From: Eledone cirrhosa
Taxonomy: Eukaryota
NCBI GenBank assembly: GCA_964016885.1
Contig: OZ024741.1
Span: 10,540,001 to 10,604,000 of the forward strand
DNA length: 64,000 bases
Direction of reading: 5' to 3'
Of the stretch, positions 37,571-55,331 are shown piece by piece. The stretch's first letter is position 1, and each line of letters opens with the position of its first letter. The position numbers were made by a program, and so were the translations under genes. Below the pieces are notes generated by a model. It saw only the letters and a list, made by a program, of their open reading frames with translations. It was not told the DNA's origin and did no database searches.

Positions 37571-37693
37571 CTCACATAAACGAAATTATGAATACGCACA
37601 ACCACTTGTACAGACAAACATCGTACACACATACATACATACATACATACATACATACATACATACATACATACATACATACATACATACATA

Positions 37694-38304
37694 CAGTAAA
37701 AACCCCAATAAAATTCAGGCATAACAGACCAGATATTATGATATGGGACAGGGAGAAGAAAACATGCACAGTAGTGGAAATTAGCTGCCCAGCAGATGCC
37801 AATATAATATCAAAGATTAGTGAAAAGGAGAATATTTATGTAGAACTGATGAGAAATCTGCAGATACTCCACCCTGATTACACCTTCAGATTTATGCCTG
37901 GTATTATTGGGGCACTGGGGTATGTTAGTAACTGCGTCAATACAAATCTTGAGAAGCTAGGCTTCACAGGAACAGAAAGAATACAACTAGTTAGGAAATT
38001 ACAAGTACAATCCATTAATGGAACAGTAAAAATAAGTAAAACATTCCAAAAATGTTACATCTAATAACTGCATATACACATGTACAGATACAAAGCATAT
38101 ACACATGCAAACATACAATTCAAAACATACACATCCACACATACAATAACATCCATATCTACACATGCATGCAGACATGCAGACATGCAGACATATCTAC
38201 CTAGTTGATGTTGTGTAAATTCCAATGAGAGAGTCTTGTGTTTATGTTAGAAACCGATTCTCTCAGTATTGGTAAAACTTTGTGAAATTATAAAACCAGA
38301 AGAA
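37694..38304 (+). mobile_element. 5'-truncated R4/Dong-clade non-LTR retrotransposon, copy 1 (REL endonuclease C-terminus + 3' UTR), flanked by (CATA)n
   Basis: ORF 37588..38064 contains HNRPDIMIWDREKKTCTVVEISCP...KENIY, a restriction-like PD-(D/E) endonuclease motif. The 3' UTR ends ...aaaaccagaagaa(cata)n, as in the other copies. Confidence 0.88.
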
Positions 38305-38349
38305 CATACATACATAAATAAATACATACATACGTACATACATACATAC

Positions 38350-39991
38350 AATGGCGACCGTTGTGGTCAGTGTCCGATAATCGGACGTGTGTAATTACGG
38401 CTTACATGAAGGCAACATACCATATATTGGAAAAAGTTGAGCTACATTACGCAGTAAGATTACATACAATAATTCTACATAAGTGTTTGAACTGTAAGTG
38501 TGTTGTAAAACACCTATTTATATGAACGATACATACACTTATGATTTATGAACGATACATACACTTTAACATATAAATGCAACGTTGTTATATTACATAT
38601 GTAAAGAAATATGCAAGTAACGTTTTCGATTCAGAAACAAAAACATATGTGTTTGAACTGTGAATATGTTGTGAATATGTTGTAGAACACCTATTTATAT
38701 GAATGATACATAAACTTTAACATATAAATACAGCGTTGTTATATTATATTACATTCATAAAGAAATATATTAAGTAACGGTTTTTTTGTTTTGTTTTTTT
38801 TTTGTTCTCGATTCAAACGATTCAAGAACAACGTTTAAAACACAGTTGTAGAATTAAAAACTAACTGAAAAGAAATATTACCCAAGCTGTGAATAACTTT
38901 AAATTTGATTCTGACAGAACTTTGTCGAAACTTTTAAAGAAGATCATCGACTATTTTGAAAAATAAATACAAAATATTAGTGAATAGACGAACTCATCAT
39001 GGCAACAAGTATAAGTCTCCTTCGACCAAATCGCAACTACAACCGTTGTATACAGTGGAGCTACGAGCTTAACAAAGAATTATATGAATCATACAAACAA
39101 TCTGAACCCTAAAAGTTGGGTTTTATGCAAAGGCTAAAAACTTTATGAAACTCCAAACACCCAGAATTAGACTTTTCTCCAAAGCATTTAAATCAACAGG
39201 CAAAATGTATCATTAGATGTAAATTGATACATCTAACGGAATTGAGTGATACTACAAATACAGCCCTTGTAGACAACCACCTCACCTCCACTGACAGACA
39301 AAGAGAATGGCCAGCTAAATCTAACAGTGAACAGCTCACCAACAATTTTGCTGAAATCCATCCCACTTCCACTGAAGAACAGCGAGAATGGTCAGCTAAC
39401 TCTAGTAGTAATTGTCACCACATCAACAACGAAGCTGAAATTCATGACTCTACTGTACAAACAGAACACCAAAAGCTTGTGGACACCTTACAAGTGATAT
39501 GGGACGATATGTTTCAAGAGATACACAGCCTTAATGTGAGTGACAGACCATACAACACCAGAATCAGTAAAGAACTCACTAAATTGGAATTGGAAGCGGT
39601 GAACGAAATAGCTGGCAATTATCTGAAGGCTATACGATCTAAAGGTGTAGAAACGACATTTGAAACGACAGTTTCAGCTGTCCCATTGCTATCATATAAC
39701 ACACATCTAAAACCACGAAATCAAGATACAAACAAAAAGCCTGAACCAGCGTGGATGCGAAATTTAAAAAGGAAAATTTTGTCCCTGAGACGAAGTATCT
39801 CACACATCGCAGTTGTTATGAAATGCAACATAGAGAGCAACTTCACAGTTTCATATTCTACAAATGGCTGCGATAGCTGGCACCTTCAAAATTTGCAAAA
39901 CATTCTTGCGATTCAAGGGATGACAATTTCTTTTCTTTTACAACCTTGCCACCAGGAAGGTGGCCGGTCAAAAAAATATACTCGAAATTAA
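38350..39991 (+). pseudogene. 5' part (UTR + degenerate N-terminal ORF from ATG 38,999) of an R4/Dong-clade element
   Basis: My translation from 38,999 is MATSISLLRPNRNYNRCIQWSYELNKELYESYKQSEP*KLGFMQRLKTL*NSKHPELDFSPKHLNQQAKCI, in frame with ORF 39224..39991 (PAWMRNLKRKILSLRRSISHI). Both resemble R4-clade N-terminal motifs. Two in-frame stops; no RT follows. Confidence 0.65.
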
Positions 39992-40338
39992 GAGAAAGAG
40001 ATAACATACATACATACATACATATATATATATGCATGTAAAAGTATGAACATACATACGTAATATACATATAAACATATATAGATAGATACACATTGGC
40101 ACACACACACACTTATGTATATATATACATATATAATATCTCCATATAAATATATACGTCTATACCGATACATACATATATATACACACATGAAATCTTA
40201 TATATGTGTTTATGTATGAATAATAAGAGAGGGGGGGGGGGGAGAATGATTATATTCCTAGACATGAATTATGATTGTCTGTATACATGTATATACATGT
40301 ATATATACATACATACGTGTTTGTACATACATATATAC

Positions 40339-41000
40339 ATGATAGCTACCCCCTCGTTATCGAGTCTGGCCATATATATACATATATACATGGTGGCTGC
40401 CAACTCGTTTTCGAGTACGGCCACTACTTTATATCCATGTAGGAGAACCCCTACCGATGCGCTGAACAAGTGTGACTTTTTAGTCCAGTCAGTGACTTGA
40501 AAACTCTGGTACAAACACTACACTTGTGACAATTATTGACACATAGTGCTGGGCCCATGGTACCACGTGACGACAAGTGCAGAGAGATCTCCAGATATAA
40601 AGCAATGCCTGTGCCGTGAAGCTTTTATAGTGATCAAAGGCACTGCACAAAGCCAGTCCCACTCTCTTAACCAAGATGATATTTACCAAAAAGAAGAACA
40701 ACTCAACATCATTGGATACCATCAGGGTTGCAGGTGGTATATCAGAGTTTTCCTTCTCCTAGAATTCTGCCTTGACAAAAGCTAAAGGGTCATCTCTGCC
40801 GGTGATTTTGGATGGCCATTGACTCTTAAGAGGTCCTTTGCCCTTTGACAGGTTTTGTTTTTAGTCCTGCAGGATGTCCAAAGTCACCCACCTCACCAAG
40901 AAACCTTGGTGGGGTTGCCAGTTTAGTCGCCAACGACCCGACCATGGGACAGGTTGTACTGGGATACATGTTACCAGTAGCACCAACTGATGACCTGACA
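40339..41000 (-). mobile_element. Non-autonomous RTE-derived element (5' UTR-like segment plus two RTE-type 3' end modules)
   Basis: 40700-40945 is the reverse-complement homologue of 44944-45190, including ctaggagaaggaaaactctg (RTE 5' UTR-like). 3' modules with a ctcg..cgag hairpin lie at 40339-40373 and 40390-40425. Confidence 0.6.
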
Positions 41001-41202
41001 TACATATATACATATATACATATATACATACGTACATGTAACATACATGTACATACATACATATATACATACATACACACATACATACATGCATACATAC
41101 ATACATACATACATACATAGATACATACATACATACATACATACATACATACACACACACATACACACAGACATACATACATACACATACACATACATAC
41201 AT

Positions 41203-41536
41203 AGCTGGGCTTCACAGGAACAGAAAGAACACAACCAGTTAGGAAATTACAAGTATAATCCATTAATGGAACAGTAAAAATATGTAAAACATTCCAAAAT
41301 GTTGCATCTAATAACTGCATATACACATGTACAGATACAAAGCATATACACATGCACACATACAACTCAAAACATCCACATCCACACATACAATAACATC
41401 CATATCTACACATGCATGCATACATACATATCTACCTAGTTGATGTGTAAATTCCAATGAGAGAGTCTTGTGTCTATGTTAGAAACCGACTCTCTCTCTA
41501 TTGGGAAAACTTTGTGAAATTATAAAACCAGAAGAA
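41203..41536 (+). mobile_element. 5'-truncated R4/Dong-clade copy 2, flanked by (CATA)n
   Basis: Highly similar to 37955-38304 and has the same 3' terminus gaagaa(cata)n. Confidence 0.88.
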
Positions 41537-41585
41537 CATACATACATACATACATACATACATACATACATACATACATACATAC

Positions 41586-53992: not shown

Positions 53993-54083
53993 GTATGACC
54001 CGACGGCAGAGCTCAAGCTGTTTCAACGGCTATTTCCAGAAATAGCAGTCGAAACGGCTTGAGCTCTGTCGTCGGGGTCATAC
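53993..54083. repeat. 91-bp near-perfect fold-back palindrome
   Basis: gtatgacccgacggcagagctcaagctgtttcaacggctattt pairs with aaatagcagtcgaaacggcttgagctctgtcgtcggggtcatac, with 4 mismatches and 1 bulge. Confidence 0.88.
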
Positions 54084-54129
54084 ATGTTCCTGTATATATA
54101 TATATATATATATATATATATATATATAT

Positions 54130-54520
54130 ATAGTCCTACATACATATATACATATATAGTCAAGTACACACACATGTAAACACAGTTAAAGTGTACGTGT
54201 CTTTCTATATATATATATATGTGCACATAGTCCTACATATAGCCACAACAAAGCACACATGTAAACAGGTAAAGTGTACGTGTGTTTATATATATATATA
54301 TATGTGTGTGTGTGTGTGTGTGTGTGAGTACACATACTCCTACATATATCCACAACAAAGCACACATGTAAACAGGTAACGTGTACGTGTGTTTATATAT
54401 ATATATATGTGTGTGTGTGTGTGTGTGTGTGTGTGTGTGTGTGTGTGTGAGTACACATAGTCCTACATATAGCCACAACAAAGCACACATGTAAACAGGT
54501 AAAGTGTACGTGTGTTTCTA
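54130..54520. repeat. Tandem ~100-120-bp unit (3-4 copies) with internal TA/TG microsatellite
   Basis: tagtcctacatatagccacaacaaagcacacatgtaaacaggtaaagtgtacgtgtgttt repeated. Confidence 0.85.
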
Positions 54521-54525
54521 CACAC

Positions 54526-54562
54526 TTAACAACGTGTTAATAAACTCCACAGCAAGTAACCT
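54526..54562 (-). CDS. Possible 37-bp host exon (RLLAVEFINTLL)
   Basis: Pyrimidine-rich tract with ttctag| acceptor and a weak A|gtgtgt donor. Ends in phase 1, compatible with the 35859-35929 exon. Confidence 0.25.
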
Positions 54563-54624
54563 CTAGAATATGTTGGAGTGGGAGTACAGAGAGAAAGTGG
54601 GAGAGATGGGGGAGTTGGGTTAGG

Positions 54625-54985
54625 AGATGGTGTTGACTGGATAGCTGTGTGGGGGAGACTAGGGTGAAGGGTGTATGTGTGGGCGGGTCGACTGGCTGGC
54701 TGTGGGGGGGTGTATAGGGCACTAGGGTGAGGGGGTGTCGGCTGGATGGCTGTGTGGGTAGACTAGGGTGGGAGGAGGGGGTTCGACTGGATGGGGAGGG
54801 GTATAGAGGACTAGGGTGTAGGGGTGGGGGTCAACTGGATGGGGAGGCGTGTAGGGGACTACGATGGGTGTGTGTGTGGGGGGCGGGGGTTCAACTGGAT
54901 GGGAGGGGTATAGGGAACTAGGGTGAAGGGGTGTTGATTGGTTGGCTGTGTGTGTAGGGGATGTGTGGGGGAGGTGTAGGGAGAC
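54625..54985. repeat. Degenerate G-rich minisatellite (ggactagggtg..cgactggatgggg)
   Basis: Read directly. Confidence 0.75.
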
Positions 54986-55180
54986 GGTGTGTGGTTTGCC
55001 AGAATAGCTCCTAATTCTTACATATGTTACTGTGAATACCTGTGAATATCTATGTAACTATATGTATATATGTATATGTAACTATATATATGTATATATG
55101 CATCTATGTATGTTTGTTTGTATGTATGTACATATGTATGTATATATGTATGTATGTATATACGTATGTATATATGTATG

Positions 55181-55331
55181 TTCTTCTGATTTTACAATTT
55201 CACAAAGTTTTGCCAATACAGAGAGAGTGGGTTTCTAACAGAGACACAAGACCCTCTCATTGGAATTTACACATCAACTAGGTAGACATGTATGTATGCA
55301 TGTGTAGATATGGATGTTATTGTATGTGTGG
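55181..55331 (-). mobile_element. 3' UTR fragment of R4/Dong-clade copy 4 with (CATA)n-type tail
   Basis: Reverse complement of the shared 3' UTR. It ends at ttcttctg next to the (tatg)n tract at 55105-55180. Confidence 0.85.

What the first reader, a model, noticed from the sequence alone, without database searches (positions are those of the whole stretch)
37631..55331. R4/Dong-like REL retrotransposon family that appears to target (CATA)n microsatellites
Seen: four copies (37694-38304, 41203-41536, 43401-44416 on +; 55181-55331 on -) share the same 3' terminus (..cagaagaa) joined to (CATA)n. The three + copies are truncated at different 5' points yet each begins directly after (CATA)n. A probable fifth fragment (44904) and a 5' half (38350) also start right after (CATA)n, and repeat orientation always follows element orientation. 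Known: REL-bearing non-LTR elements are often sequence-specific (R4 in 28S rDNA, Dong in TAA repeats). Inference: this is a tetranucleotide-specific endonuclease/RT system. I do not know a description of this target but cannot check.
Basis: partly seen in the sequence, partly recalled or inferred. Interest (0 to 1): 0.72.

Follow-up and report, generated by a model that had tools for sequence, protein, structure and literature searches.

The report
Dong-type retrotransposons landing in CATA repeats
Two related families of jumping genes, thousands of copies in this animal genome, sit mostly inside runs of the four-letter repeat CATA and nearly always face the same way, likely because their own enzyme cuts that repeat; their known relatives use the three-letter repeat TAA, so this would be a switch of landing site.

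Summary
Confirmed, with corrections. The four copies are 5'-truncated members of a 4.15-kb R4/Dong-type RT+RLE family (A). In 64 copies picked only by their 3' end, 48 have same-strand (CATA)n at the 5' junction and 1 the opposite strand; random background is 0.66%. None abuts (TA)6, which is about 48 times commoner. Complete 5' ends: 30/30. Truncation points show excess microhomology to the repeat, and copies almost never split another repeat (1/57 vs 78/300), so the array likely predates insertion.
Corrections: 38351-40004 is an internally deleted copy of a second, younger family B (59% RT identity; 29/30 5' ends at CATA; 7 of 20 fetched copies have open ORFs). The 44904 piece is only 41 nt. 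Copy 4 abuts a satellite at its 5' end. RTE-type elements share the arrays on the opposite strand.
No empty site or nicking was shown. Dong is known to target (TAA)n, and ACAY targeting is known from unrelated Waldo elements. A CATA target for R4/Dong was not found in nine searches; Repbase and Dfam were unavailable. This scan noted the same thing six times elsewhere in this genome. Verdict: new variant of a known kind.

The parts
37609..37693 (+). (CATA)n array 5' of copy 1
   Evidence: TRF; sequence
37694..38304 (+). Family A copy 1, 5'-truncated (611 nt): RLE domain and 3' UTR
   Evidence: 91-94% to three long copies; RPD..VEISCP in ORF
38305..38350 (+). (CATA)n: tail of copy 1 and 5' flank of the family B copy
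38351..40004 (+). Family B copy with complete 5' end and 3' end; internal deletion of about 2.57 kb (38351-39847 = B 1-1508; 39850-40004 = B 4081-4235)
   Evidence: blastn to full-length L309 (93% and 98%)
40005..40032 (+). (CATA)n tail of the family B copy
40381..40998 (-). RTE-type non-autonomous short element (~620 nt), opposite polarity, (TATG)/(TA) at both ends
   Evidence: the RTE link is inferred from 3'-end likeness to the end of the neighbouring RTE
40998..41202 (+). (CATA)n array shared by the short element's 5' end and copy 2's 5' end
41203..41536 (+). Family A copy 2, 5'-truncated (334 nt)
41537..41587 (+). Perfect (CATA)13 tail of copy 2
41588..43307 (-). 5'-truncated RTE-type LINE (RT plus C-terminal C2H2 fingers), opposite polarity; that it reaches 41588 is inferred
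   Evidence: Pfam; RTE clade name from recalled likeness, no clade test
43308..43400 (+). (CATA)n array between the RTE 5' end and copy 3's 5' end
43401..44416 (+). Family A copy 3, 5'-truncated (1016 nt): CCHC knuckle, RLE with a frameshift, 3' UTR
44417..44516 (+). Degenerate (CATA)n tail of copy 3
44519..44827 (-). RTE-type 3' fragment, opposite polarity
   Evidence: family assignment inferred
44828..44903 (+). Perfect (CATA)n array
44904..44944 (+). 41-nt internal fragment of family A (about 1490 nt from its 3' end)
   Evidence: 92-98% to three long copies
44945..45430 (+). RTE-type short element fused to the 41-nt piece, ends in (TATG)n
55061..55180 (-). Degenerate (CATA)n tail of copy 4 (TATG on +)
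55181..55331 (-). Family A copy 4, 3' UTR only (151 nt); 5' end abuts a 24-bp satellite, not CATA

Best explanation
Two R4/Dong-type non-LTR retrotransposon families (A, 4.15 kb; B, 4.22 kb) sit mostly in (CATA)n microsatellites in one orientation, likely because their own protein recognises and nicks that repeat. Shown: one ORF (1174 codons in open B copies) with RT, CCHC knuckle and RLE motif; a fixed 3' junction phase (..AA|CATA); same-strand CATA at 5' junctions; excess microhomology at truncation points. Inferred: the N-terminal Myb-like helices and the RLE bind the repeat; the RLE nicks the (TATG)n strand; RT primes on that 3'-OH, possibly helped by a few CATA units at the RNA 3' end; the upstream (CATA)n strand then anneals to the cDNA through 1-7 nt of microhomology to finish the 5' end. 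Each insertion leaves arrays on both sides, so later copies stack head to tail.
For: 3' side: 1744 of 2210 exact 3'-end 31-mers genome-wide are followed by CATACATA. 5' side: 48/64 copies chosen by 3' end only (TATG 1/64; random 0.66%, local 6.9%; p 2e-42 against local), of which 36/52 truncated and 12/12 complete. Complete A 5' ends 30/30 (some are the same copies as the 12). Family B: complete 5' ends 29/30, truncated 12/18. Selectivity: 12-bp CATA 40/64 (background 0.09%) against (TA)6 0/64 (4.3%), (CA)6 0/64, (TAA)4 0/64. Microhomology: mean 2.4 nt against 0.82 null; >=3 nt in 19 of 49 junctions with overlap >=0 (11 of 60 had untemplated gaps) against 8.4%. Flanks that join up as the interior of another repeat without CATA: 1/57 against 78/300 random sites (Fisher 6e-6). 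Array variants shared on both sides: 12/32 against 7.3 shuffled, p 0.027 (weak). Anatomy; Myb lead 0.86.
Against: No orthologous or allelic empty site was recovered. No biochemistry. 16 of 64 5' junctions lack CATA by the strict rule; several abut other elements and may be later deletions or template jumps. The junction samples come from the first listed matches on one chromosome (C1), not the whole genome. RTE-type elements without an RLE also crowd into these arrays (16/30 with 5' TATG), so the arrays may be generally accessible, and RNA-tail pairing alone could explain part of the pattern. The Myb fold was not confirmed.
Confidence: 0.8

Rival explanations
1. Tail-guided priming: the endonuclease is loose, or nicks come from elsewhere (such as the RTE enzyme or repair), and specificity comes from the RNA's 3' CATA units pairing with a nicked (TATG)n strand.
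For: The 3' junction phase is fixed (58/64 begin CATA), as an RNA-encoded tail would give. An RTE-type short element with a TATG/TA tail shows the mirror pattern.
Against: Dong-type selectivity is tight (0/64 in the far commoner TA arrays), while the RTE-type element is loose (14 of 30 without 5' TATG, several in TA or unique DNA). RLE elements are mostly target-specific (PMC4640811, passage).
Confidence: 0.13
2. The repeat is made by the element: a tail at the 3' end, plus slippage or later expansion of a short duplication at the 5' end, at otherwise random sites.
For: 5' arrays can be short (about 10-17 bp in L146 and L126); microsatellites expand; no empty site was seen.
Against: Random insertion should split other repeats about a quarter of the time; seen 1/57 against 78/300. 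Microhomology in phase with CATA at truncation points implies the repeat was there when the 5' end was joined. Free CATA arrays occur in random DNA (9 tracts printed from 200 kb; no element end recognised in the 50-70 bp flanks by eye).
Confidence: 0.04
3. Survivor or neighbourhood bias: copies insert anywhere but persist or pile up in CATA-rich, TE-dense regions.
For: The local background is tenfold above random (6.9% against 0.66%); no family A copy in 230 kb of other DNA.
Against: Enrichment holds against the local background (p 2e-42), is junction-precise and is strand-specific (48 against 1).
Confidence: 0.03

Closest known systems
Dong (Bombyx mori), DongAg, DongBg, ostracod Dong1/2; R4/Dong clade
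   Same: RT plus REL endonuclease, microsatellite target, no N-terminal zinc finger, divergent Myb-like N-terminus (PMC7998251 section 3.3; PMC3812793 passage)
   Different: Target is (CATA)n, not the (TAA)n reported for most insects, molluscs and cnidarians; 0/64 copies abut (TAA)4. The 5' HDV-like ribozyme reported for Dong (PMC3774820 passages) was not found here.
Octopus 'Dong-R4' LINE families
   Same: Same label and a similar full length: 5 recently active families, 1129 insertions covering 4.73 Mb in O. vulgaris (PMC13282606 table); also noted in PMC8967140 and PMC9115989
WaldoAg1, WaldoAg2, WaldoFs1
   Same: Target ACAY microsatellites, which include (ACAT)n, the same repeat (PMC3812793 passage)
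   Different: APE-type endonuclease, insects (R1 clade by the title of the cited paper); here the endonuclease is RLE-type, so the shared target would be convergent.
R2 (solved structures 9nl3, 9dou, 9nl2, 8gh6)
   Same: Best PDB matches, over RT through RLE (profile E 6e-55); target-primed reverse transcription is borrowed from it
   Different: R2 targets 28S rDNA and has N-terminal zinc fingers; none in the 36 rows checked.
Togen (fish) and some HERO families
   Same: RLE-group elements with microsatellite specificity (PMC4640811 passages)
   Different: Togen targets (TG)n and is NeSL-related.

Membership tests
R4/Dong clade | Single long ORF with RT | tested here: met
   1174-codon open frame in family B, RVT_1 E 3e-24; family A frames collinear but broken in the long copies checked (longest 833 codons)
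R4/Dong clade | C-terminal CCHC knuckle and restriction-like endonuclease (PD..D/E) | tested here: met
   CRLC..E...H....C..RHD and RPD..VEISCP in A and B; knuckle in 35/35 and PD..E motif in 31/35 homologs by regex; profile aligns to the R2 C-terminus
R4/Dong clade | No N-terminal zinc finger (unlike R2) | tested here: met
   0 of 36 rows with a C2H2-like pattern in the first 380 aa
R4/Dong clade | Divergent SANT/Myb-like N-terminal domain | tested here: inconclusive
   Conserved helical block; atlas top hit Rap1 Myb at 0.86, a lead only; no Pfam hit; fold searches dominated by other helices
R4/Dong clade | RT groups with named R4/Dong elements in a tree | not testable with these tools
   No named R4 or Dong sequence was obtainable; homologs are unnamed. 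In the tree of 95 RT regions A and B fall in one 44-leaf group (support 0.997) and are not sisters
R4/Dong clade | HDV-like ribozyme at the 5' end | tested here: inconclusive
   No Rfam match and no hit of a home-made descriptor that had no positive control
Dong proper | (TAA)n target | tested here: not met
   0/64 5' junctions at (TAA)4, 40/64 at 12-bp CATA
Waldo (ACAY-targeting) | APE endonuclease | tested here: not met
   No endonuclease/phosphatase Pfam hit in the full B protein or in the 36 aligned rows; RLE motif instead
Sequence-specific RLE element | Endonuclease cuts the target in vitro | not testable with these tools
   Needs a nicking assay

The most novel reading that the evidence does not exclude
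A Dong sub-lineage switched from (TAA)n to (CATA)n through its Myb-like/RLE module, is still mobile (family B), and shares one microsatellite with an unrelated RTE system that cuts the other strand. Each insertion regenerates arrays for both, building polarised, self-feeding retroposon nests, and the pair gives a natural test of how RLE target specificity is rewired.
Probability: 0.3. Interest if true: 0.7.

Novelty: new variant of a known kind. Interest (0 to 1): 0.5.

Why it matters
How RLE retrotransposons change target is an open question with practical weight, because R2 is being developed for gene insertion (PMC13586686, passages). Dong has been described as holding to (TAA)n across insects, molluscs and cnidarians. 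Two families 59% identical in RT that share a different, strand-specific tetranucleotide target, one with open ORFs and near-identical copies, make a direct comparison possible (TAA against CATA binding, domain swaps, RNA-tail swaps). The result also explains why CATA/TATG microsatellites in this genome often have repetitive flanks, which matters for marker design and repeat annotation. It does not overturn a principle: microsatellite targeting by RLE elements and an ACAY target (Waldo) are both known.

Tried and rejected
Empty-site search with public contigs: two lays (window 37300-46000 with 4 runs; L234 with 4 runs) showed no joint skipping an insertion among the rows shown; repeats are skipped by the tool and the tables were cut, so this is uninformative. 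Paralogous empty sites among fetched loci: only end-to-end analogues, nearly all with CATA between. Metagenome relatives: 8 loci; the closest (54%) lacks its 3' end and the others are distant broken relics, one of four printed ending in (TAA)n; nothing on CATA. Names for homologs: none informative. Myb fold: AlphaFold of the family A N-terminal 428 aa plus Foldseek and VIA gave only generic helical hits; a single-sequence model of 77 aa was two long helices and was not searched. Ribozyme: nothing. TSD length cannot be read inside the repeat; only a weak shared-variant signal. No genome-wide count of 5' ends with upstream CATA was obtained; the 5' figures are samples. Papers not held: Xiong and Eickbush 1993 and Fell et al. 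2025, a screen of 4,464 animal assemblies for site-specific retrotransposons that could list this target. Rejected: that 38350 is a 5' half of family A; that 44904 is a substantial fifth copy; that the 5' CATA is the tail of a neighbouring short element in sense orientation (that would read TATG).
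Full report
Observation. The four copies exist at the stated coordinates, align to each other, end in ..CAGAAGAA and continue into (CATA)n. The three + copies follow CATA arrays. Copy 4 abuts a 24-bp satellite at its 5' end. The genome is 3.0 Gb in 1796 contigs. An octopus-like host is a guess: the neighbouring RTE-type element has RT, C-terminal zinc fingers and a microsatellite 3' UTR, like RTE-2_OV in PMC9115989 (passages). 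It was not tested.

Family A. The best 40 genomic matches to copy 3 were 92-100% identical; 37 were fetched with long flanks. The longest copies are about 4.15 kb and begin at a fixed 5' end. An exact 31-mer of the 3' end occurs 2210 times and an exact 29-mer of the 5' end 461 times; both are lower bounds on copy number. Median pairwise identity over the last 900 nt is 93% (33 copies). None of the long copies checked kept a whole ORF (longest 833 codons). A 742-aa natural frame carries RT, a CCHC knuckle and RPD..VEISCP. Its best PDB matches are R2 proteins, and a 36-row profile aligns to R2 from RT to the C-terminus (E 6e-55).

Positions 38351-40004 have no match to three long family A copies. 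They match a second family, B, with about 2.57 kb deleted and a CATA tail. Positions 44904-44944 are a 41-nt piece of A fused to an RTE-type short element.

Family B. 3555 exact 3'-end matches and 312 exact 5'-end matches. Of 20 copies fetched from their 5' end, 16 reached a 3' end at over 4 kb (median identity 98.1%, maximum 99.8%) and 7 had an open frame of 1173-1174 codons. One translated copy shows RT, knuckle and RLE motif. A and B are 59% identical over RT and 45% over the RLE region and are not sisters among 95 RT regions. Contigs of three other organisms cover parts of both families at 88% likeness or more.

Target test, 3' side. 1744 of 2210 A ends are followed by CATACATA. In the sample, 58 of 64 begin CATA. 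For B, 22 of 30 have 8 bp of CATA right after the end.

Target test, 5' side. From the first 100 listed 3'-end matches (all on C1) I fetched 60 stretches with 4.5 kb upstream, giving 64 distinct copies after dropping one tandem duplicate. The first 30 listed had only 1.5-kb flanks and were left out of this count; two already fetched and the last three listed were not refetched. 48 of 64 have >=8 bp of same-strand CATA within 10 bp of the junction, 1 has TATG; background is 0.66% in 20 fixed 10-kb stretches from nine contigs and 6.9% locally. Truncated copies: 36 of 52; complete 5' ends: 12 of 12 and 30 of 30 in a separate pattern search that overlaps that set. Family B: 29 of 30 complete and 12 of 18 truncated copies whose junction lay inside the fetched flank. 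Selectivity: 12-bp CATA 40/64 at 0.09% background; (TA)6 0/64 at 4.3%; CA, TG, TAA, GATA all 0/64. Of the 16 negatives, several abut other elements and a few have CATA just outside the cut-off.

Target or product. (a) At 60 truncation junctions with CATA nearby, 49 overlapped by 0-7 nt (mean 2.4, null 0.82; >=3 nt 19/49 against 8.4%, p 5e-9) and 11 had untemplated gaps. This is what annealing of an upstream CATA strand to cDNA would leave. (b) If arrays arose at random sites, flanks beyond them should often join up as the inside of another repeat: 78 of 300 random sites do, 1 of 57 copies does, and that one is an end-to-end junction (Fisher 6e-6). (c) Variant motifs are shared across the element in 12 of 32 imperfect arrays against 7.3 shuffled (p 0.027); weak. 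(d) A direct empty site was not obtained.

Co-tenants. An RTE-type short element of about 620 nt (23,766 exact 3' 30-mers) has TATG at its 5' junction in 16 of 30 copies and CATA in 1, and often uses (TA)n. It is looser and has the opposite polarity. In PMC9115989 supplement 1, part 3 of 13 (18 rows read), 3 of the 4 rows with a TSD call for an octopus RTE are TA or TA/CATA repeats.

Mechanism. Shown: anatomy, junction phase, polarity, selectivity, microhomology. Inferred from R2/R4 biology: RLE nick on the (TATG)n strand, target-primed reverse transcription, second-strand priming by microhomology. Recognition by the N-terminal Myb-like block rests on PMC7998251 (section 3.3 read) and an atlas lead (Rap1 Myb 0.86); fold tests were inconclusive. 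The main rival is RNA-tail-guided priming at nicks made otherwise.

Literature. Dong, DongAg and DongBg target TAA; Waldo elements target ACAY (PMC3812793, passages). Dong targets (TAA)n in most insects, molluscs and cnidarians. Octopus Dong-R4 families are catalogued, with no target in the passages found (PMC8967140; PMC13282606 and supplement search; PMC9115989, 4 of 8 supplements searched). RTE sites are described as not sequence-specific (PMC2887409, passages). Dong has a 5' ribozyme (PMC3774820, passages). PMC4640811 (passages, supplement search) lists other microsatellite-specific RLE families. Nine searches showed no R4/Dong element with a CATA target in the listings or passages seen.

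Earlier scan notes. Six notes on other pieces of this genome reach the same reading; they are unchecked and are not counted as support. My reading was fixed before that call.

Verdict. Real and strongly supported as strand-specific insertion into (CATA)n. It works like Dong and meets the testable R4/Dong features, but fails Dong's TAA target. New variant of a known kind; interest 0.5.

Noticed in passing
window 40381-40998 (-), 44945-45430 (+); L241-L270: Very abundant RTE-type short element (23,766 exact 3' 30-mers) that prefers (TATG)n/(TA)n with polarity opposite to the Dong-type families; RTEs are described as not sequence-specific.
   Followed up: partly
L309-L328: Family B is young: 7 of 20 fetched 5'-complete copies have an open 1173-1174-codon frame, and copies are up to 99.8% identical; it may still be mobile.
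   Followed up: partly
L181-L210: Complete family A 5' junctions carry short extra letters or duplications of the first four element bases in several copies, suggesting untemplated addition or slippage at second-strand priming.
   Followed up: no
L065, L151, L160: Three family A copies begin directly after the same 3'-end-like sequence of another repeat, at different internal positions; later deletion or template jump.
   Followed up: no
L127 and window 44904-44945: Chimeric junctions (family B into family A; family A into an RTE-type short element), possible template switching between RNAs.
   Followed up: no
window 49517-52510 (+): Penelope-like element with RT and GIY-YIG weak Pfam hits, broken by stops or frameshifts.
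   Followed up: no
window 1-33015: 33-kb tandem array of period 45 with very long open frames on both strands; satellite or mucin-like coding repeat not resolved.
   Followed up: no
window 55334-62499 and 62525-64000: 24-bp satellite rich in CATA/CACA units abutting copy 4's 5' end, followed by a 19-bp satellite.
   Followed up: no
window 47468-47968 (+): 166-aa frame that looks like a hAT-type transposase fragment (recalled likeness; no Pfam hit).
   Followed up: no
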